Source: a virus. Taken from it: a DNA stretch of 64,000 nt. The DNA is taken from the IMG/VR virus record IMGVR_UViG_3300012931_000019, positions 1 through 64,000 of that record; one strand, written 5' to 3'. A program made the translations under genes and the position numbers. Below are positions 33,217-63,477 of the stretch, in pieces. The first letter of the stretch is position 1, and every line of letters starts with the position of its first letter. The notes under the pieces were generated by a model. The model was not told the origin of the DNA. It saw only the letters and a program-made list of their open reading frames with translations, and made no database searches.

Positions 33217-35838
33217 ATGGCATTAAATAAACAGGTACATATTTATTCGATAGATACTAGTGCTTTTTACAATGATGATGAAATAAAGATACATAAACGG
33301 ATGTCCAAAAATCATTTATTTAAAAACACCTTAAAAAAGAAAAAAAAGAAAACATTAAATGAAATTAAAAAAGAAACCCGCAAAGATATTCGAGAAAAAT
33401 TAAATAAAAGATTAAGTAAGATAGAACTATATATAAAAAATTGTTCTGAAAGATTAAAGAATCAAAAGGAGAAATTATATTTAGAGTTTAAAAAAAATGA
33501 TGATACTAAAAATGTTAGGTGTTTAAATAATGAGTATTTGAATAACAAGAACATAATCTCAGTGTTTGATTCTTCCCTTACTAGAACTTTGGAAATAAAC
33601 GAAAATACACTATCTCTTAATTTTATGGTAGTACAAACTTATTTCTTTGAAGTGATTGAAGATATTATATTAGATGGATTCATGTATAATAATGAAAAAT
33701 ATATTTGTCTTACAGCAAGCGCAGGACAAATTAGAACTAAAAAAACAGTATTTATAAGAGAAAATTCATTAATTGAATATCAAAATACTTTAATGTGTGG
33801 TTTAACAATTGAAGAAATAAATGAACTTGGTGGAGTTAATATTAATAAATATTTAGCATACTTGGCTCTTTGTAATTCTGCTACAGATGCTTGGGGTGAA
33901 TTTAATATTAATAAAACTATTGTAGTTGATGATATGGAAACAGTTGTTAATGGGTTAGTAGATTTTATTGATGATAAGACTTATTCTATTGAACGAAAAT
34001 ATATGGATATTCAGATTAATCATACTGATGGTTGTGGTATGATACTTCCAAAAATAAGTGATAAAAGTTTTATGGTTCGTCTTCCTTGGGTTAAAGGTTT
34101 ATTAGTATCATTTGCTTTTGATAATTTTATTATAGAAAATAAATTGAATGGTAAAATAATTGATATTTATGGAGTTGAACATGATGTAATTACTGAAGGT
34201 ATTGAAATCATATTTACTAAGAGTCAGTTCAAGATGTATAAATATTATAAGTCTTGGAGTGATTATAAAGAAAGATACATAAAATATAATTGTCAAGCTG
34301 GTATTTGTAACGAAGAAGATGATGATTTTAATAATGTAAAAATGGGATATCAAATGATTCAGACATTGACTGATATGACAGATTTAGAATTAAAAGATTT
34401 ATCTAAAACCACAATACATAATATAAAAACCGTTGGTAATGATCGTAAGACAATGTTAAGGGTTTTAGGTGTTACATTAGCAAATATAAGTAAAAACTAC
34501 TATCAGCAAGCATTAGAAATCTACCCAGAACTTTTAAATGATACATATAGTAAAGAAATATTAAAACAAGTTAAAAAAAGTATTGTTAAAGATGGTCGTT
34601 CTGGTAAATTAAACGTAAATGGTGCATATACTTTTATCTGTCCAGATTTATATGCATTTTGTGAATATTTATTTATGGATAATAACAATCCAGATGGATT
34701 ACTTAAAGATGGTGAAGTATTCTGTAGTTTATTTAAACAATATAATAAGTTGGATTGTTTGAGAAGCCCCCACCTTTATCTTGAACACGCTATTCGTAAA
34801 AATATAATTGACGAGAAAAAAGATAAATGGTTTATAACAAATGGTTTATATACCAGTTGTCATGACATAATTAGTAAAATATTAATGTTTGATGTAGATG
34901 GTGATAAAAGTTTAGTTTGTGTTGAAAAAACATTGATTTCTGTTGCAGAAAGAAATATGAAAGATATAGTTCCTCTTTATTATAATATGGCAAAAGCGGA
35001 GGCAATGGAAATTAATAATGCAACAATATTTAGTGGATTAAAACTGGCATATACAGGGGGGAATATAGGGCAAGTTAGTAATAATATATCTAAAATTTGG
35101 AACAGTGGTAATGTAAATTTAGATGCTATTAAACTACTTTGTATGGAAAATAATTTTACAATTGATTATGCAAAGACATTATATAAACCCCAAAGACCAA
35201 CAGAAATTGATGCTCTAATTAAATCGTACACTAAACTAAAAGTTCCACATTTCTTTATTTATGCTAAAAATAAAAAAATAGAGAATGTTGAAAAGATAAA
35301 TAAGAGTGTGGTAAACAGATTAGAAAAAATAATTCCTAATCCAATTATTAATTTTAAAGCAGTTGGGCTTAATAATTTTGATTACAGATTATTATTGAGC
35401 GATCCAGATGAAATTATTGAGTTGGATAATGACATTGTAGAAAAGTATAGAGAACTAGATTTAAAAAAACATTTTATGATGAATTTATCTAAAAATGACG
35501 AAAAAAATAATAATATTACGCATCAGTATCAAATGATTAAAGAACAAATTTTAGAAATTGATTCGGATTTTCGATATGTTGTTAATGTATTGGTTGAATA
35601 TCTTTATATGCATAAGAAATCAAATTATAAGACAACACTTTGGGAATGTTTTGGTGATGTGCTTGTTGAGAATTTAAAAAACAATATTAAAAATAAGACA
35701 ATTTATTGTGAGTGTTGTGGAGATATAATTGAACAAACTGGCAATAGGAAAAAATATTGTGACGACTGTTGGAAAGAAAAAGAAAAGGAAATAAAAAGAC
35801 AGACATGGCATAGAAACAAGGAAAAATATAAAAACTAG
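33217..35838 (+). CDS. YonO-like single-subunit phage RNA polymerase
   Basis: 873 aa; TDGCG, RSPHL and catalytic FDVDGD (DxDGD) motifs; C-terminal Zn ribbon; heads late operon as SPbeta yonO does. Confidence 0.85.
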   Translation: MALNKQVHIYSIDTSAFYNDDEIKIHKRMSKNHLFKNTLKKKKKKTLNEIKKETRKDIREKLNKRLSKIELYIKNCSERLKNQKEKLYLEFKKNDDTKNVRCLNNEYLNNKNIISVFDSSLTRTLEINENTLSLNFMVVQTYFFEVIEDIILDGFMYNNEKYICLTASAGQIRTKKTVFIRENSLIEYQNTLMCGLTIEEINELGGVNINKYLAYLALCNSATDAWGEFNINKTIVVDDMETVVNGLVDFIDDKTYSIERKYMDIQINHTDGCGMILPKISDKSFMVRLPWVKGLLVSFAFDNFIIENKLNGKIIDIYGVEHDVITEGIEIIFTKSQFKMYKYYKSWSDYKERYIKYNCQAGICNEEDDDFNNVKMGYQMIQTLTDMTDLELKDLSKTTIHNIKTVGNDRKTMLRVLGVTLANISKNYYQQALEIYPELLNDTYSKEILKQVKKSIVKDGRSGKLNVNGAYTFICPDLYAFCEYLFMDNNNPDGLLKDGEVFCSLFKQYNKLDCLRSPHLYLEHAIRKNIIDEKKDKWFITNGLYTSCHDIISKILMFDVDGDKSLVCVEKTLISVAERNMKDIVPLYYNMAKAEAMEINNATIFSGLKLAYTGGNIGQVSNNISKIWNSGNVNLDAIKLLCMENNFTIDYAKTLYKPQRPTEIDALIKSYTKLKVPHFFIYAKNKKIENVEKINKSVVNRLEKIIPNPIINFKAVGLNNFDYRLLLSDPDEIIELDNDIVEKYRELDLKKHFMMNLSKNDEKNNNITHQYQMIKEQILEIDSDFRYVVNVLVEYLYMHKKSNYKTTLWECFGDVLVENLKNNIKNKTIYCECCGDIIEQTGNRKKYCDDCWKEKEKEIKRQTWHRNKEKYKN

Positions 35839-57113: not shown

Positions 57114-57452
57114 ATGATGACAATGAGTGATCGTTGGGTCTTTCAAAATGAAGCTACAACGACAGCAGATGGAGAAGCATTATTTTCTGGTAGATGGGAT
57201 CAAGTAACTATATATATTACTGGAACTGCTACAAGTAGCACAGTAGTATTTGAAGGTTCTGACAAGGATGGAAATTGGTACAGTTTACCAGCTTTTAAAA
57301 TGCCAGATTATACTTTAGCATCACAAACTACAGAACTTGATGAAGCATGGGTAATAGATTTATCTAAATGGTATTCTGTTAGAGCGAGAATTGATTCAAT
57401 TTCAGGTGGTTACATAACTATTGTTGGAAAAGTGGTGAACTCTAATGGTTAA
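57114..57452 (+). CDS. hypothetical beta-rich virion-type protein
   Basis: VVFEGSDKDGNWY; coupled to the next gene. Confidence 0.65.
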   Translation: MMTMSDRWVFQNEATTTADGEALFSGRWDQVTIYITGTATSSTVVFEGSDKDGNWYSLPAFKMPDYTLASQTTELDEAWVIDLSKWYSVRARIDSISGGYITIVGKVVNSNG

Positions 57453-59832: not shown

Positions 59833-59988
59833 TATGGGGATAATATAATAGAATCAAATTCAGTTTTTAACGGAAGTTTAATAAGGGTGGAGTGAAATAT
59901 CTTCGTCCTTATTATATTAGATTGAAATCGCAATTTTATATGAATTGAGTTTATTAAATAAAATAATAAATAATTTTTAAATTTGTAC

Positions 59989-60016
59989 TTGACATTCTTT
60001 TCCAATGTGCTATAAT
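59989..60016 (+). promoter_or_regulatory. consensus sigmaA promoter of the Agr-like module
   Basis: TTGACA-16-TATAAT with extended TG and AT-rich UP element. Confidence 0.8.
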
Positions 60017-60043
60017 ACACATTAGAAAGGATGTTGAGAGAAG

Positions 60044-60448
60044 ATGAATAAGATAAGAAAATATGTGACGATACCCGCAGTTATTGGGTCGGTATTAGTA
60101 ATGATAGCTTTAATATATTATACAAGTAAATTTTATACAAATGCAGAATTATTATTCCATCAGAATCAATTTAGCTTTTTTATTGCTTTTGCGTTAATTG
60201 TATTGTTTTTAATTCTTCTTTTATTTTATTATATTTTTATTGTAGGTAAAAGATTTGAGAAAGCAATGAACGAGAGAGATGTAAAATTTGAGAAAATAAT
60301 TAATGAAAAAGATGCGAAAATTGAAAGTCTGCTTAACGAAATTATTCAGCAAAATGGAATTCATTCACAATGCACAGAAGAACATTTTGATCAAATAATT
60401 GAATCGAGTCAGATTATCAATGAATTAATTTTAGATACCAAGGGGTGA
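60044..60448 (+). CDS. two-TM membrane protein with cytoplasmic coiled coil
   Basis: two hydrophobic segments then charged helix. Confidence 0.7.
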   Translation: MNKIRKYVTIPAVIGSVLVMIALIYYTSKFYTNAELLFHQNQFSFFIAFALIVLFLILLLFYYIFIVGKRFEKAMNERDVKFEKIINEKDAKIESLLNEIIQQNGIHSQCTEEHFDQIIESSQIINELILDTKG

Positions 60449-60452
60449 TAAT

Positions 60453-60833
60453 TTGGATGATAATGAAAATATAAATATCATCAATTGGGCTAAGAGAAAT
60501 TCCATGAAAAATAATCATAATTATTTCTGCAAACTTTTAAAGCATTTTAATATAAATGAGTGTGATTATAACTTTTTTTGGAACGGGTATGGGGACTATA
60601 GCTTGTTGATCACCTTATCAGCAAAGCAGTATTTAATTGAGATTGATGATAGACAAATGTGCTATAATTTATTATTTGAAGCCACAGCGTCAAATCAATG
60701 TAGAAAACCGAAATATATCGCACAAACAAATAAGAAAATGGAGCCTATTAAGTTTTATGGTGAAAACGTTATGTATAAGACATTAAAATATATCATTAAT
60801 CACTGTAAAAGCAAAGGAGAAAAAATAATATGA
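60453..60833 (+). CDS. hypothetical soluble protein
   Basis: TTG start with SD GGGGTGA. Confidence 0.65.
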   Translation: MDDNENINIINWAKRNSMKNNHNYFCKLLKHFNINECDYNFFWNGYGDYSLLITLSAKQYLIEIDDRQMCYNLLFEATASNQCRKPKYIAQTNKKMEPIKFYGENVMYKTLKYIINHCKSKGEKII

Positions 60834-61288
60834 CACTCATAAGTAAAATTTTTATAATGTTTATATTTTCAAGTGTATTTGATGGCTTGATAGTTGTTTC
60901 GTATTTTGTTTTGGACAATAATATTGGAAAGCGTTATAACAAATTTATTTATGGATTTTTTGCAACATCTATGGTAAATGCAATAATGTATGAATTAATG
61001 TCTGGTCTTGGATTATGGTTTCAATTAATTTTTATATTATATAGCGGTTTAGTTTTAGGAATAATATTTAATGTAAATATTAAAAGATCAATATTTTCTG
61101 TGTTTAAAGTAATGTGTTTAATGTTGATAATAGAAGCAAGTGTATCTATTTTATTGACGGTAATTTTTAAAATTAATATGTTTTCAGTAAATTTTGATGC
61201 TAAAACATTGGCATTATGTATGCCACAGAGAATATTAGAATTTATAATTATATATTTTGGGAAGAAAAAAATAATCAAAAAGAGGTGA
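60830..61288 (+). CDS. multi-TM membrane protein (possible AgrC-sensor-like, no kinase domain)
   Basis: about 5 hydrophobic segments; adjacent to agrB-like gene. Confidence 0.5.
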   Translation: MTLISKIFIMFIFSSVFDGLIVVSYFVLDNNIGKRYNKFIYGFFATSMVNAIMYELMSGLGLWFQLIFILYSGLVLGIIFNVNIKRSIFSVFKVMCLMLIIEASVSILLTVIFKINMFSVNFDAKTLALCMPQRILEFIIIYFGKKKIIKKR

Positions 61289-61293
61289 TAATA

Positions 61294-61347
61294 ATGGAAC
61301 AGGTTCGTTGCAAGTCATGGATTTTTGGTGATACCAGAATCAGATAA
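61294..61347 (+). CDS. putative AgrD-like autoinducer micro-peptide MEQVRCKSWIFGDTRIR
   Basis: SD AGAGGTGA; Cys followed by aromatic residues; directly upstream of agrB-like gene. Confidence 0.5.
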   Translation: MEQVRCKSWIFGDTRIR

Positions 61348-61372
61348 GTAAACAAAAGAATACAAATAATGC

Positions 61373-61398
61373 GGGACTATTAATATTAATAGTCCTTT
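61373..61398 (+). terminator. stem-loop between peptide gene and agrB-like gene
   Basis: GGACTATTAA/TTAATAGTCC inverted repeat followed by T-rich tract. Confidence 0.55.
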
Positions 61399-61423
61399 AT
61401 TTATTTGTATGGAGGTGAATGGT

Positions 61424-61996
61424 TTGATTATTAAATTATCCATGTATATCGTGGATATGTTACTTAGTTCAAAAATATTTAAGATACAAGACATAGATGA
61501 TTTTACCGATAAGGTTATATTCTGTGTCTTTTTTATTATTTCTAATATTTTCTTTTTCGGGTTGGGTATTTTATTACACTGTGCTCTTCAAGTAATGATC
61601 GTATTAATTGTATTGACCGTATTGAGATTATTTTCTGGTGGATACCACAGTTCAGTTGATCGCTGTCTTATGATTAGCGTTCCGTATATTTTATTAATAT
61701 CTATAATAGCTAAATATGCAATTAATTATTCAGACTTTTTATGTTTTTTAAGTATATTAGCAGGTGTTTATATAATTAAAAAAGTACCTATTATCCCTAA
61801 AATTGATATGAACAATAAAATAGAAAAATGGTTTCAAGGAAGATATATTGATGTTTTTCTTTTATTTTATGTAATCAATTATATATGTTTGTCTTTACAT
61901 AGTGGAATAGGGAATTTAATTTCAAGTTCAATTAGTATGGCTATTCTTGGAGTAGCTTTAATGATGAGAAAAAATAAAAAGATAAATTATGATTGA
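61424..61996 (+). CDS. agrB: AgrB-family peptide-processing membrane protease
   Basis: LRLFSGGYHSSVDRCLMIS carries the AgrB His...Cys catalytic motif; multi-TM; TTG start behind GGAGGTGA. Confidence 0.8.
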   Translation: MIIKLSMYIVDMLLSSKIFKIQDIDDFTDKVIFCVFFIISNIFFFGLGILLHCALQVMIVLIVLTVLRLFSGGYHSSVDRCLMISVPYILLISIIAKYAINYSDFLCFLSILAGVYIIKKVPIIPKIDMNNKIEKWFQGRYIDVFLLFYVINYICLSLHSGIGNLISSSISMAILGVALMMRKNKKINYD

Positions 61997-62104
61997 ATGA
62001 AAGAAGAGTTTTAACGGAATTTTTGAAAATAATAATGTTGAAATTTAAACATGCACTTTACTTGGTTAAAGTGCTTTTTTATTGGATTAAAAGGAGGAAT
62101 TTTT

Positions 62105-62674
62105 ATTAATCAAGTATTAAAATTAGTATCACCTATTTCTCCCAGCGTCAACCATTACTTGGCGTATCGGGCGATTATAAAAAACAAGAAGCCTATGGCA
62201 ATGAGTTATAAGACTTCTGAAGCTACAAAATATCAAAAGGATTTTATTAAATATGTGAAAGAACAGGTTGAACTTCAAGGATGGGTTAAGTCTGAAAATA
62301 AATTTCAGCATTATTATATGGATACATATTTCTATTTCCCAAGAACAGATATGGATGCAAATAATTATTACAAATGCCTCGCTGATGCGATAACAGATGC
62401 TGAAGTTGTTTGGATTGATGATGTTCAATTGTGTGAAAGAGTACAAGGAATACTTTATGACTCACAGAATCCTAGAATTGAAATGGAAATAAAGCCAGTA
62501 GACTACATAGGTATATTTAAAGATATATCTCAATTAGATCAATTTGAATCTAATTGCGTCGATTGTACAAAGTATAACCGAAATTGTAGTATTCTTGTAA
62601 AAGCAAAGGAAGGCAGAATACAGGAAGAAATTCAAAATTTAGTTTGTAGTAAGTTTAAACAAAATAAAAAATAA
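62105..62674 (+). CDS. rusA: RusA-like Holliday junction resolvase
   Basis: PSVNHY, DMDANNYYKCLADAI, DDVQ, NPRIE; SD AGGAGG points to ATT start at 62105. Confidence 0.8.
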   Translation: MNQVLKLVSPISPSVNHYLAYRAIIKNKKPMAMSYKTSEATKYQKDFIKYVKEQVELQGWVKSENKFQHYYMDTYFYFPRTDMDANNYYKCLADAITDAEVVWIDDVQLCERVQGILYDSQNPRIEMEIKPVDYIGIFKDISQLDQFESNCVDCTKYNRNCSILVKAKEGRIQEEIQNLVCSKFKQNKK

Positions 62675-62702
62675 AATTATAGAATATAAGGAGATTACAT
62701 AA

Positions 62703-63389
62703 ATGACTAAAAAGAAAGTTAAGATAGAAAATGACAATATAGAAGTTATTACGGAAAAAGAAATAGTTGAAGTTATTGAAGATAAAAAAGATATGGTTTC
62801 TTTAGTTGATGTAATTAAGAATAATGCTCATTATACGGTTAAATCATATCTCCCAATTGTACAAAAGACAGCATTAATTAGTTCGATAGTTGATCTGTGT
62901 ACAAAACTGAATGAAGAAGGAATGTTGGTTGTTGATTATTGTTATAAGCATCTCTCAATGTGTTTAACCATTATTATCAGTTACACGAACATAGATATTT
63001 CTAATTTTGGTGATGAAGAAGCTTATGATGCTCTTGAAGAACATGGAGTTATGCAGGAAATTTTTAATAAGATGAATCCTGATGAAGTAAAATTCTTAAA
63101 TGATACGTTGGAAGCTGAACTTAAACAAAAAGAAATAATTACAAATTGTGTTGAAGGAATTATAAATAGGGCATTGAATAAGGCTGTGGATAAGTTGCCA
63201 GATGCAAAAGATGTTGAAAAAATAACGAAAAATATTCTTAAATTTAATCCTGATAAATTGAAATTCATGGTTGATCAGAACGAAAAATGGAACGGCACAT
63301 TTGGAGGTAAAACTATTAAAGATTTACTAGGTGGATTTATTAATAGTGTCAAAAATGCTGATAAAAAGTCTATTGACACAGTTGAATAA
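62703..63389 (+). CDS. hypothetical (possible tail assembly chaperone)
   Basis: SD AAGGAG; YTVKSYLPI motif; tail module. Confidence 0.6.
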   Translation: MTKKKVKIENDNIEVITEKEIVEVIEDKKDMVSLVDVIKNNAHYTVKSYLPIVQKTALISSIVDLCTKLNEEGMLVVDYCYKHLSMCLTIIISYTNIDISNFGDEEAYDALEEHGVMQEIFNKMNPDEVKFLNDTLEAELKQKEIITNCVEGIINRALNKAVDKLPDAKDVEKITKNILKFNPDKLKFMVDQNEKWNGTFGGKTIKDLLGGFINSVKNADKKSIDTVE

Positions 63390-63477
63390 CCAAATCAAAT
63401 TCGGATTTCATGCCAAATTAAATGTTGAAATTTCAAAGCTCACTTTAGTACGCTAAACCGATTTAGAGGTAATAAAA

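What the first reader, a model, noticed from the sequence alone, without database searches (positions are those of the whole stretch)
59922..62015. Agr-like quorum-signalling module with its own promoter, bracketed exactly by the 18-bp sites
Seen: site TTGAAA-TCGCAA-TTTTAT (59922-59939), then a consensus sigmaA promoter, a 2-TM protein, a soluble unknown, a roughly 5-TM protein, a Cys micro-peptide and an AgrB-like gene. Site ATGAAA-GAAGAG-TTTTAA (61998-62015) begins 2 bp after the AgrB stop. No histidine kinase catalytic domain or LytTR regulator is present. Established: AgrB cyclises AgrD into thiolactone signals; a phage-borne agr locus is known from C. difficile phage phiCDHM1; Bacillus SPbeta phages use the unrelated arbitrium peptide system. 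Inference: a cassette inserted in the tail operon and expressible in lysogens. It may make a cyclic peptide for phage-phage communication through a non-kinase receptor, or jam/sequester host Agr signals.
Basis: partly seen in the sequence, partly recalled or inferred. Interest (0 to 1): 0.82.

Follow-up and report, generated by a model that had tools for sequence, protein, structure and literature searches.

The report
Kinase-less AgrB peptide operon in phage
An uncultured SPbeta-like phage from a wetland carries a self-promoted five-gene operon: an AgrB-type peptide-processing enzyme, a 17-residue leaderless peptide and three proteins of unknown kind. It probably makes a small cyclic peptide, and what senses that peptide is unknown.

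Summary
A perfect sigma-A promoter (59989-60016) drives a 2-TM protein, a soluble protein, a 5-TM protein and a 17-codon Cys micro-ORF. A strong hairpin follows, then a true AgrB-family gene (Pfam 46.7 bits against a cut-off of 23, with the R/GG/H/C/S/P core conserved). No kinase or LytTR regulator is present.

The same five-part operon, promoter and hairpin included, occurs in two other distant SPbeta-like phages at 25-57% identity. So it is a conserved functional unit, and the micro-ORF is a real gene.

The 18-bp sites are a real, enriched motif of this phage. They flank the module: the right site is 61997-62014 and abuts the stop codon. The relatives carry the module without such sites, so the sites are punctuation of this genome rather than ends of the cassette.

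The precursor lacks two defining AgrD features, the leader and the long acidic tail. One relative's peptide has no Cys or Ser. The three accessory proteins have no known family or fold.

The likeliest reading is AgrB-made cyclic-peptide production expressed in lysogens, with a dedicated, uncharacterised membrane apparatus. Signalling, bacteriocin-with-immunity and host-agr interference remain open.

The scan found a different kinase-less agr cassette on another phage (e1-3283753), and Hargreaves 2014 noted similar ones. I class this as a new variant of a known kind.

The parts
59853..59870 (+). Junction site ATCAAA-TTCAGT-TTTTAA followed by cGGAA, 21 nt after the fibre gene's stop
   Evidence: PWM score 17.9 on the + strand; listed
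59875..59918 (+). Hairpin between the two left-hand sites; possibly the fibre gene's weak terminator
   Evidence: -14.5 kcal/mol, z -2.4
59922..59939 (+). Junction site 1, TTGAAA-TCGCAA-TTTTAT; a weaker member that lacks the GG flank
   Evidence: PWM score 14.8
59989..60016 (+). Sigma-A promoter TTGACA-16-TGcTATAAT; a perfect promoter at the same place in both relatives
   Evidence: 12 of 12 matches plus TG. L002 8466-8494 is 12 of 12 plus TG. L006 has TTGACA-17-TATAAT.
60044..60448 (+). ORF1, 134 aa: two TM segments, a conserved 17-aa outer loop and a cytoplasmic helical tail
   Evidence: Only weak, sub-threshold hits to the 2-TM N-termini of other proteins.
60453..60833 (+). ORF2, 126 aa, soluble alpha-beta-alpha sandwich. 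The family has 5 proteins among 5.8 billion searched.
   Evidence: AF2 pLDDT 84.7. No Pfam, PHROG or PADLOC family; best fold match Z 7.1.
60830..61288 (+). ORF3, 152 aa, five-helix membrane protein; its start overlaps the ORF2 stop (ATGA). A small family known only from metagenomes.
   Evidence: 19 representatives among 1.84 billion proteins, all metagenomic. AF2 pLDDT 86.3. No fold match.
61294..61347 (+). Micro-ORF MEQVRCKSWIFGDTRIR, the candidate leaderless AgrB substrate
   Evidence: Strong RBS. Positional homologs are MRNCEKFWVLGDTRTK (L002) and MGGFYFGKPAKVNTQKQTETKKEEVKK (L006). Stop codons exclude a long form in L002.
61360..61410 (+). Strong hairpin (inner stem 61373-61396) with a T-rich tail between the peptide gene and agrB: an attenuator or terminator
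   Evidence: -20.5 kcal/mol, z -6.3. Hairpins of unrelated sequence sit at the same place in L002 (z -5.1) and L006 (z -6.5).
61424..61996 (+). AgrB-family membrane cysteine peptidase, 190 aa, TTG start after GGAGGTG
   Evidence: PF04647 at 46.7 bits against a cut-off of 23. R68, G72, G73, H75, C81, S85 and P122 are invariant in the subfamily.
61997..62014 (+). Junction site 2, ATGAAA-GAAGAG-TTTTAA followed by cGGAA; abuts the AgrB stop codon
   Evidence: PWM score 23.1, the best + strand site of the late region.
62053..62082 (+). Intrinsic terminator (stem 62053-62074 plus a T-run) that ends the module's transcript
   Evidence: -10.3 kcal/mol

Best explanation
This is a conserved, self-promoted accessory operon (a moron) of a small clade of uncultured SPbeta-like phages. 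It makes a small AgrB-processed peptide.

Proposed steps (each step is labelled shown or inferred):
1. Host sigma-A RNA polymerase reads the consensus promoter independently of the phage's late programme, so the operon can be on in lysogens. The promoter is shown; expression is inferred.
2. One tightly packed mRNA gives ORF1, ORF2, ORF3 and the 17-aa peptide. Gene gaps run from -4 to +5 nt (shown).
3. A strong hairpin after the peptide gene lets only part of the transcription reach agrB. This gives an excess of precursor over enzyme, as in many RiPP clusters (inferred).
4. AgrB cleaves the precursor after the hydrophobic residue that precedes the conserved Gly, that is W-I-F | G-D-T-R, through an acyl-enzyme on its Cys (inferred).
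5. The thiol of Cys6 resolves that intermediate into a thiolactone. The product would be MEQVR-cyclo(CKSWIF), with a calculated [M+H]+ of 1408.69 (inferred).
6. Because there is no amphipathic leader, no second leader protease is needed (inferred).
7. ORF1, ORF2 and ORF3 always travel with the AgrB gene and the peptide gene. I read them as the cognate membrane-associated apparatus for sensing, immunity or export. Which of these they do is not settled.

The 18-bp sites are this phage's own gene-junction motif, not part of the module.
For: AgrB membership:
- Pfam score above the gathering cut-off.
- An invariant R/GG/H/C/S/P core across 10 relatives. This matches the His77/Cys84 dyad described in PMC10482373.

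The five-part operon is conserved in three lineages:
- G000, L002/L003 (49-57% aa identity) and L006 (G001). For L006, identity to G000 is 25% (ORF2), 33% (ORF1) and 37-39% (AgrB); its ORF3 is 25% identical to L002's.
- Each has a perfect sigma-A promoter.
- Each has a hairpin after the micro-ORF, of unrelated sequence, with z from -5 to -6.5.
- AgrB-, ORF2- and ORF3-family proteins are each recorded with a longest contig of 80,504 bp, which suggests a fourth instance.

The micro-ORF is a real gene:
- It has a strong RBS in all three loci.
- The junction [WF]-[IVY]-[FL]-G-[DK] is conserved.
- GDTR is kept through a synonymous change.
- Stop codons exclude a long form in L002.

Other points:
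- Genes are packed or overlap.
- Module GC is 25.8% against 29.9% for the genome, in the lowest 4% of 2-kb windows.
- The phage is SPbeta-like.
Against: - The peptide lacks the N-terminal amphipathic helix and the 14-15-aa charged tail. PMC10482373 reports both as needed for AgrB processing in S. aureus.
- The L006 peptide has no Cys or Ser before the F-G junction, so a thiolactone or lactone cannot form there.
- Implied ring sizes would be 6 (G000) and 7 (L002), not the usual 5.
- G000's AgrB has one residue fewer between the catalytic His and Cys than every other relative seen (6 against 7-8).
- The gene order (peptide upstream of agrB, with a terminator-like hairpin between them) is not the canonical agrB-agrD order.
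- ORF1-3 have no recognisable family or fold, so their role is pure inference.
- There are no expression data.
Confidence: 0.55

Rival explanations
1. A bacteriocin or 'cannibalism' module. The AgrB-made peptide harms non-lysogens or sibling cells, and the membrane proteins ORF3 and/or ORF1 give the lysogen immunity. This would parallel the sublancin (sunA) and immunity genes carried by SPbeta itself.
For: - The phage is SPbeta-like. From my own knowledge, SPbeta carries a peptide-bacteriocin moron with immunity.
- Small polytopic membrane proteins are co-transcribed ahead of the peptide.
- The peptides are cationic and hydrophobic.
- A strong constitutive-looking promoter fits a trait of the lysogen.
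Against: - To my knowledge, no AgrB-made peptide is known to be antimicrobial.
- Products of 10-11 residues are short for membrane-active toxins.
- No ABC exporter is present.
- ORF3 matches no known immunity family.
Confidence: 0.18
2. Interference with the host's own agr-type system. The phage peptide mimics or blocks the host's autoinducing peptide at a host-encoded AgrC/VirS-type kinase, so no phage receptor is needed.
For: - No kinase or LytTR regulator in 82 kb of G000 or 98 kb of G001.
- Orphan agrBD loci that signal through unlinked host sensors are known in clostridia (abstract of PMC7492741).
- Cross-inhibition between autoinducing peptides is established (PMC10482373).
Against: - It gives no role to ORF1-3, which are strictly co-conserved with AgrB and the peptide.
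- The host is unknown.
- The records are only 49% and 66% complete, so a receptor could lie in the missing parts.
Confidence: 0.12
3. The micro-ORF is a regulatory leader or arrest peptide. Its translation controls the downstream hairpin and so the expression of agrB. AgrB acts on some other substrate, for example ORF1, ORF3 or a host protein.
For: - A micro-ORF followed 13-26 nt later by a terminator-like hairpin and then the enzyme gene is the classic attenuator layout. It is kept in all three loci.
- The L006 peptide lacks any Cys or Ser nucleophile.
Against: - I saw no alternative anti-terminator pairing.
- The conserved hydrophobic-Gly junction and the Cys in two lineages look like a protease and cyclisation site.
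- Precursor genes followed by leaky terminators are usual in RiPP clusters.
Confidence: 0.08
4. The module is a mobile cassette whose ends are the 18-bp sites, moved by site-specific or site-guided recombination (integron-like, or like the PeSL elements of T4-type phages).
For: - The sites flank the module, and the DNA homology with L002 ends 4-13 nt inside them.
- The strongest + strand sites of the late region (59853, 61997, 63394) delimit two out-of-place units: the agr module, and the RusA-like gene plus a 228-aa ORF.
- In T4-type phages, PeSL motifs at gene junctions mediate modular shuffling (PMC2839356, PMC4122927).
Against: - Relatives carry the same module without sites.
- In the early array a site sits before most genes, at a short, regular distance 5' of the RBS and with the polarity of transcription. 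That fits an expression signal as well.
- The two arms do not covary, so the site is neither a strict palindrome nor an RNA stem.
- No close relative was found that could show a presence/absence polymorphism.
Confidence: 0.15

Closest known systems
Staphylococcus aureus agrBDCA (canonical agr quorum sensing)
   Same: An AgrB-family membrane peptidase with the His/Cys dyad. A small ribosomal peptide with a Cys followed by a hydrophobic stretch, encoded next to agrB.
   Different: There is no AgrC kinase and no AgrA/LytTR regulator. The precursor is 17 aa, not 40-50, and has no amphipathic leader. Its tail is 6 aa and basic, not 14-15 aa and acidic. The peptide gene lies upstream of agrB and is separated from it by a hairpin. 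Three unrelated proteins are co-transcribed. The implied ring has 6-7 residues.
agr3 locus of Clostridioides difficile phage phiCDHM1 (Hargreaves et al. 2014, PMC3901668)
   Same: A phage-borne agrB plus a peptide, with no response regulator. GC is lower than in the rest of the phage.
   Different: phiCDHM1 has an AgrC with a HATPase domain and a normal AgrD with the P-x-x-P motif. tblastn of the G000 AgrB against GenBank phages at E<=1 returned no phiCDHM1 record.
AgrB cassette of Brevibacillus phages Davies, Emery and Abouo (noted in PMC3901668), and the kinase-less cassette of scan finding e1-3283753
   Same: A phage cassette with AgrB, a small peptide, polytopic membrane proteins without a kinase domain, and a small soluble protein.
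   Different: Davies has two 220-aa membrane proteins, then AgrB, then a 39-aa AgrD with a leader, then a 121-aa protein with a sub-threshold full-length LytTR match (E=0.0074, 16.9 bits against a cut-off of 22.6). ORF1-3 show no similarity to these proteins. ORF2 shows no LytTR signal. The Davies cassette sits beside the integrase, not after the fibres.
Orphan agrBD loci of clostridia (C. difficile agr1, C. perfringens agrBD)
   Same: AgrB plus a peptide without a linked kinase or regulator.
   Different: Those have canonical AgrD precursors and signal through unlinked host sensors such as VirS (PMC7492741). They have no ORF1-3 counterparts that I could test.
Arbitrium (aimP/aimR/aimX) of SPbeta-group phages
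   Same: Only as a functional analogy: a peptide made by an SPbeta-like phage that could report the density of lysogens.
   Different: The components are unrelated: a linear hexapeptide and a cytoplasmic TPR receptor. I did not test whether G000 also has arbitrium, and the record is only 49% complete.
PeSL promoter/stem-loop motifs of T4-type phages (PMC2839356, PMC4122927)
   Same: This comparison concerns the 18-bp sites only: a short conserved motif repeated at gene junctions of the plastic regions, flanking accessory genes.
   Different: No conserved -35/-10 promoter elements accompany the G000 sites. The arms do not covary. No recombinant genomes are available.

Membership tests
AgrB (Pfam PF04647) | Profile match above the curated gathering score | tested here: met
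   46.7 bits against a cut-off of 23, E=3e-12, covering positions 19-178 of 185. 46.2 bits in the six-frame search. L006 AgrB scores 79.8 bits.
AgrB (Pfam PF04647) | Invariant catalytic His and Cys (His77/Cys84 in S. aureus; PMC10482373) | tested here: met
   H75 and C81 are invariant, with R68, G72, G73, S85 and P122, in 10 relatives. The spacing is H-x5-C in G000, against H-x6-C in nine others and H-x7-C in one.
AgrB (Pfam PF04647) | Polytopic membrane protein of about 190 aa | tested here: met
   190 aa; the hydropathy scan flags 8 partly overlapping 19-residue windows, roughly 5 separate segments.
AgrB (Pfam PF04647) | Cleaves and cyclises its cognate peptide | not testable with these tools
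   Needs co-expression and mass spectrometry.
AgrD precursor | 40-50 aa with an N-terminal amphipathic leader of about 24 aa | tested here: not met
   The peptide is 17 aa, with only 5 residues before the Cys. In L002 stop codons forbid any longer form, leaving 16 aa with 3 residues before the Cys.
AgrD precursor | Cys or Ser nucleophile followed by a ring that ends in a hydrophobic residue | tested here: inconclusive
   Present in G000 (C-KSWIF) and L002 (C-EKFWVL). Absent in L006 (MGGFYF, with no Cys or Ser).
AgrD precursor | Charged C-terminal tail of 14-15 aa needed for recognition by AgrB | tested here: not met
   The tails are GDTRIR and GDTRTK (6 aa, net basic). L006 has a 21-aa Lys-rich tail.
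Complete agr quorum-sensing system (agrBDCA) | AgrC-type histidine kinase (HATPase_c_5) | tested here: not met
   No match at E<=0.01 in G000 (82 kb) or G001 (98 kb). None in the module's proteins. The records are 49% and 66% complete.
Complete agr quorum-sensing system (agrBDCA) | AgrA-type LytTR response regulator | tested here: not met
   No PF04397 match in G000 or G001.
Kinase-less phage agr cassette (Brevibacillus phage Davies type) | Stand-alone LytTR-like DNA-binding protein next to AgrB and AgrD | tested here: inconclusive
   ORF2 has no Pfam hit at E<=1. hhalign against Davies gp48 gives probability 0.4%. The predicted alpha-alpha-beta6-alpha topology does not look like LytTR. LytTR structures are not among the fold-search rows, which does not exclude them.
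Kinase-less phage agr cassette (Brevibacillus phage Davies type) | Membrane proteins homologous to Davies gp44/gp45 | tested here: not met
   blastp and a profile of the ORF3 family find nothing.
Phage moron | Own promoter and terminator inside a late operon, with atypical composition | tested here: met
   Promoter with 12 of 12 matches, and terminator at 62053-62074. GC is 25.8% against 29.9%.
Site-bounded mobile cassette (integron-like or PeSL-like) | The same flanking sites at the module's ends in other genomes | tested here: not met
   L002 and L006 carry the module with no such sites at either end.

The most novel reading that the evidence does not exclude
The operon is a complete, self-contained peptide communication system of SPbeta-like phages, derived from agr but without a kinase. 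A leaderless micro-precursor is cyclised by AgrB in a single step. In the Cys-less lineage, ring closure would have to be head-to-tail, through the N-terminal amine. The signal is read by a new receptor made of the 5-TM protein, the 2-TM/coiled-coil protein and the small soluble protein. That receptor feeds into the lysis-lysogeny or superinfection decision. This would be an agr-based counterpart of arbitrium.
Probability: 0.15. Interest if true: 0.88.

Novelty: new variant of a known kind. Interest (0 to 1): 0.6.

Why it matters
AgrB-made thiolactone peptides are a main signalling language of Firmicutes, and phages of the SPbeta group are the model for viral peptide communication (arbitrium). 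This operon offers three things.
- The smallest natural AgrB substrates I know of: no leader and a 6-residue tail. If they are processed, that contradicts the substrate rules drawn from S. aureus. It would also give a very compact enzyme-peptide pair for making cyclic peptides.
- A lineage whose peptide has no Cys or Ser. That asks whether AgrB can close rings in another way, or only cleaves.
- Three co-conserved proteins of unknown fold that are candidates for a non-kinase peptide receptor or an immunity device.

It also adds a second layout, unrelated to the Brevibacillus/Paenibacillus phage type, to the still uncharacterised class of kinase-less phage agr cassettes.

Tried and rejected
Searches for relatives that found nothing or nothing new:
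- blastn and megablast of the module and of 14 kb around it against GenBank phages: no match.
- tblastn of AgrB against phages: only one hit, at E=1.
- tblastn of ORF3 against phages and plasmids: none.
- IMG/VR scans with AgrB, P0002, P0003, P0006 and the 228-aa neighbour: nothing.
- IMG/VR scans with alignments A7, A14 and A15 returned only the one G001-type phage.
- Two scans of the 185,579-species genome collection (ORF3 subfamily, AgrB subfamily): no relative. So I obtained no bacterial genome handle, and I could not search Bacillota genomes for ORF3-like genes or infer a host.
- Two alignments were too diverse for that tool.

Family and fold searches that found nothing usable:
- PDB sequence search with the AgrB profile: none.
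- Foldseek and VIA-align for ORF3 and ORF2: no match above background. ORF3's best is Z 7.9 over 93 residues; ORF2's best is Z 7.1 over 95 residues.
- ESM Atlas: ORF2 gave only unnamed viral clusters at <=0.84. ORF3 gave unnamed Bacillota clusters at 0.90-0.92 and TM 0.82. These are a lead only, with no identifiers to follow.
- PADLOC and NCBIfam: nothing above cut-offs. The sub-threshold LiaS/WalK N-terminal hits of ORF1 are probably TM composition.

Ideas rejected:
- ORF1 carries a histidine-kinase DHp-like His. Rejected because that His is not conserved in L006.
- ORF2 is a LytTR domain. I found no support for it.
- The 43-aa long form of the peptide (from 61216). Rejected because it has no RBS, overlaps ORF3 and is closed by stop codons in L002.
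- The 38-aa ORF at 61993-62109. Rejected because it spans the terminator and has no Cys or Ser.

Other:
- Sequencing runs: only two wetland-metagenome DNA holders, which may be the source of this DNA. No RNA holder is listed.
So there is no genomic context for the Logan/ENA family members and no test of an ORF1-ORF2-ORF3 complex.


Full report
**What the window is**

The window is the first 64 kb of an 82,153-bp IMG/VR virus record. It has 30% GC and CheckV rates it 49% complete.
- Its terminase is 40-45% identical to those of Psychrobacillus phage Perkons and the Bacillus SPbeta group.
- It has an 873-aa protein of phrog_8308 (E=1e-292), a size that fits SPbeta's YonO RNA polymerase. It also has portal and virion proteins of that group.
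- The only sequencing runs that hold the stretch are wetland metagenomes.
- I therefore read it as a large, uncultured SPbeta-like phage of a low-GC Firmicute.

**Check of the observation**

- Promoter: TTGACA-16-TATAAT with a TG extension at 59989-60016, the only 12-of-12 match in the region.
- ORF1 (60044-60448): two hydrophobic segments and a helical tail.
- ORF2 (60453-60833): soluble.
- ORF3 (60830-61288): its start overlaps the ORF2 stop. AF2 models it as five long helices (pLDDT 86).
- Micro-ORF (61294-61347): MEQVRCKSWIFGDTRIR, behind a good RBS.
- AgrB: the gene after the micro-ORF starts at the TTG at 61424, behind GGAGGTG. It matches Pfam AgrB at 46.7 bits against a cut-off of 23.
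Site 2 is one base to the left (61997-62014) and directly abuts the stop codon.
- There is no AgrC-type ATPase domain and no LytTR domain in the module, in the rest of the 82 kb, or in the 98 kb of a related phage.

**Relatives**

Among 5.8 billion proteins, the AgrB has one close relative, at 57% identity. It lies on two metagenome contigs, L002 and L003, which are 99.96% identical to each other.
- L002 contains the whole unit in the same order: a perfect TTGACA-17-TATAAT promoter with TG, then homologs of ORF1 (53%), ORF2 (48%), ORF3 (54%) and AgrB (57%).
- Between ORF3 and AgrB it has a 16-codon ORF, MRNCEKFWVLGDTRTK.
- A profile of ORF3 found 19 representatives among 1.84 billion proteins. 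All are metagenomic.
- One ORF3 subgroup led to a third phage, L006 (G001, 98 kb).
- L006 has a perfect promoter, an ORF1-like, an ORF2-like and an ORF3-like gene, and a 27-codon ORF MGGFYFGKPAKVNTQKQTETKKEEVKK behind AAAGGAGGTG. Its AgrB scores 79.8 bits against Pfam.
- The ORF2 family has only five members among 5.8 billion proteins. The AgrB subfamily also has five.
- Members of the AgrB, ORF2 and ORF3 families are each recorded with a longest contig of 80,504 bp, which suggests a fourth instance on one contig.
- All three loci have a strong hairpin just after the micro-ORF, with unrelated sequences and z from -5.1 to -6.5.

The unit promoter / ORF1 / ORF2 / ORF3 / micro-ORF / hairpin / AgrB is therefore conserved as a whole across deep divergence. 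That is the main evidence that it is one functional system and that the micro-ORF is a gene.

**Position and mobility**

G000, G001 and the L002 phage are distant relatives. Core proteins of G000 and G001 are 21-32% identical and partly syntenic.
- In all three, the module follows a tail-fibre cluster headed by a homolog of 57114-57452.
- The module proteins are at least as conserved as the core proteins: AgrB is 39% identical between G000 and G001.
- Within the 20 kb of L002, only the module genes scored against G000 at E<=1e-5. The L002 homolog of 57114-57452 is weaker, at 28% identity.
- This looks like a long-resident moron at a plastic spot, rather than a recent insertion. I found no closer relatives that could show presence or absence of the module.
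- The module's GC is 25.8% against 29.9% for the genome. That may reflect foreign origin or simply the composition of membrane-protein genes.

**The 18-bp sites**

The motif is real.
- The strict core occurs 11 times against 2 expected.
- The degenerate form occurs 58 times against 21.6 +/- 4.9 expected.
- PWM hits number 39 (+) and 50 (-) against about 6 per strand expected.
- About 35 copies lie in the minus-strand small-gene array (372-23576). Each sits between the previous stop codon and the next RBS, on the coding strand. The consensus is ..AGC..-ATRAAA-N6-ATTTYAW-aGGaA, followed a few bases later by AAGGAGG.
- The third and sixteenth positions do not covary, so it is a bipartite sequence motif rather than an RNA stem or a strict palindrome.
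- No -35/-10 promoter elements accompany it.
- In the plus-strand late region the best copies are 61997 (23.1), 63394 (22.2), 54208, 68414 and 59853 (17.9). Site 59922 scores 14.8.
- These copies delimit the agr module, and next to it a RusA-like gene plus a 228-aa ORF.
- DNA homology with L002 runs from 59952 to 61993, ending 4-13 nt inside the two sites.
- However, L002 has 1 degenerate match in 20.6 kb. G001 has 0.38 per kb, against 0.71 per kb here; I computed no chance expectation for G001. Neither has a site at the module's ends.

I conclude that the sites are a junction motif of the G000 lineage. They may be an expression signal or a recombination hot spot of the PeSL kind (PMC2839356, PMC4122927). 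The bracketing is true in G000, but it is not a property of the module.

**Is it AgrB and AgrD?**

AgrB: yes.
- R68, G72, G73, H75, C81, S85 and P122 are invariant across ten relatives.
- This corresponds to the His77/Cys84 dyad described for S. aureus (PMC10482373).
- One oddity: G000 has H-x5-C where all the others have H-x6-C or H-x7-C.

AgrD: only in part.
- Canonical AgrD is 40-50 aa, with a 24-25-aa amphipathic leader and a 14-15-aa charged tail. Both are reported as needed for processing.
- Here the leader is 3-5 residues, and in L002 stop codons forbid anything longer.
- The tail is 6 residues and basic.
- The three peptides share a hydrophobic-Gly junction: WIF-GD, WVL-GD and FYF-GK.
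- G000 and L002 have a Cys 5-6 residues before that junction. L006 has none.

**The accessory proteins**

- ORF1: a 2-TM hairpin with a conserved 17-aa outer loop and a cytoplasmic helix.
- ORF2: an alpha-alpha-beta6-alpha sandwich (pLDDT 85). Only generic matches were found (frataxin/RWD/chaperone-like, Z<=7.1). There is no LytTR signal.
- ORF3: five TM helices with conserved acidic or polar residues inside the helices (D/E18, N/H50, Q65, E102, E137). No structural relative was found.
- No defence, PHROG or NCBIfam family fits any of the three.

**Comparison with known phage agr loci**

- phiCDHM1 has agrC-agrB-agrD, with a kinase domain and a normal AgrD (PMC3901668).
- The same paper notes AgrB cassettes with kinase-less membrane proteins in phages Davies, Emery and Abouo.
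- I read Davies. gp44 and gp45 are 220-aa membrane proteins. gp46 is an AgrB (80 bits). gp47 is a 39-aa AgrD with a leader. gp48 has a sub-threshold full-length LytTR match.
- This agrees with scan finding e1-3283753 on a Paenibacillus phage.
- None of these partner proteins resembles ORF1-3.

The present module is therefore a second, independent kinase-less layout.

**Mechanism and odds**

I commit to the following, at 0.55. The operon is expressed from the sigma-A promoter. AgrB cleaves at the hydrophobic-Gly junction. In G000 and L002 a thiolactone forms in one step without leader removal. The hairpin sets a high ratio of precursor to enzyme. ORF1-3 are the cognate membrane apparatus.

Within that, their role as a receptor (about 0.3) is not better supported than immunity or export.

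Rivals:
- Bacteriocin plus immunity: 0.18.
- Interference with host agr: 0.12.
- Regulatory leader peptide with another AgrB substrate: 0.08.

Nothing here was tested at the bench.

Noticed in passing
window 372-23576, minus strand: About 35 copies of a bipartite motif, ATRAAA-N6-ATTTYAW-aGG on the coding strand. A copy sits between the stop codon of one small gene and the RBS of the next at most junctions. The arms do not covary, and no -35/-10 elements accompany them. It could be a translational or RNA-processing signal, an operator, or a recombination hot spot. This is the subject of scan note e1-6108692.
   Followed up: partly
window 61997-63411: The two best-scoring + strand sites of the late region (61997, 63394) enclose a RusA-like resolvase gene and a 228-aa ORF, both out of place among tail genes. 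The RusA frame's first ATG (62051) lies next to the terminator stem (62053-62074). The likely start is the in-frame ATT at 62105, a few bases after AAAGGAGGAA.
   Followed up: partly
window 61424-61996, residues 75-81: G000's AgrB has one residue fewer between the catalytic His and Cys (H-SSVDR-C) than all nine other relatives examined. The gene is otherwise intact, and two metagenome runs hold 98-100% of the sampled words of the stretch.
   Followed up: partly
window 59871-59921: Between the two left-hand sites lies a 44-nt hairpin (59875-59918). It overlaps a possible 18-codon ORF that starts at a GTG behind AAGGGTGGAG. This could be the fibre gene's terminator or the remnant of an emptied slot.
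   Followed up: no
L006 8415-9878: In the G001-type phage, a 487-aa ORF sits between AgrB and an XhlA-like coiled-coil/TM gene. It is 29% identical over 104 residues to G000 64376-65980. In L002 that XhlA-like gene follows AgrB directly.
   Followed up: no
L012 (Brevibacillus phage Davies) 28293-28658: gp48 is annotated as hypothetical and lies just after AgrB and the AgrD-like gp47. It has a full-length but sub-threshold LytTR match (E=0.0074, 16.9 bits against 22.6). That would make this published phage cassette a membrane-protein / AgrB / AgrD / bare-LytTR unit.
   Followed up: partly
window 33217-35838: An 873-aa protein of phrog_8308 (E=1e-292), a size that fits SPbeta's YonO RNA polymerase, sits at the head of the plus-strand block. 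Late genes are therefore probably not read by host sigma-A, which makes the module's perfect sigma-A promoter stand out.
   Followed up: no
L002 7600-8260: The stretch just upstream of the module in L002 holds only short, broken frames on both strands. It looks like decayed coding sequence; I did not identify what it derives from.
   Followed up: no
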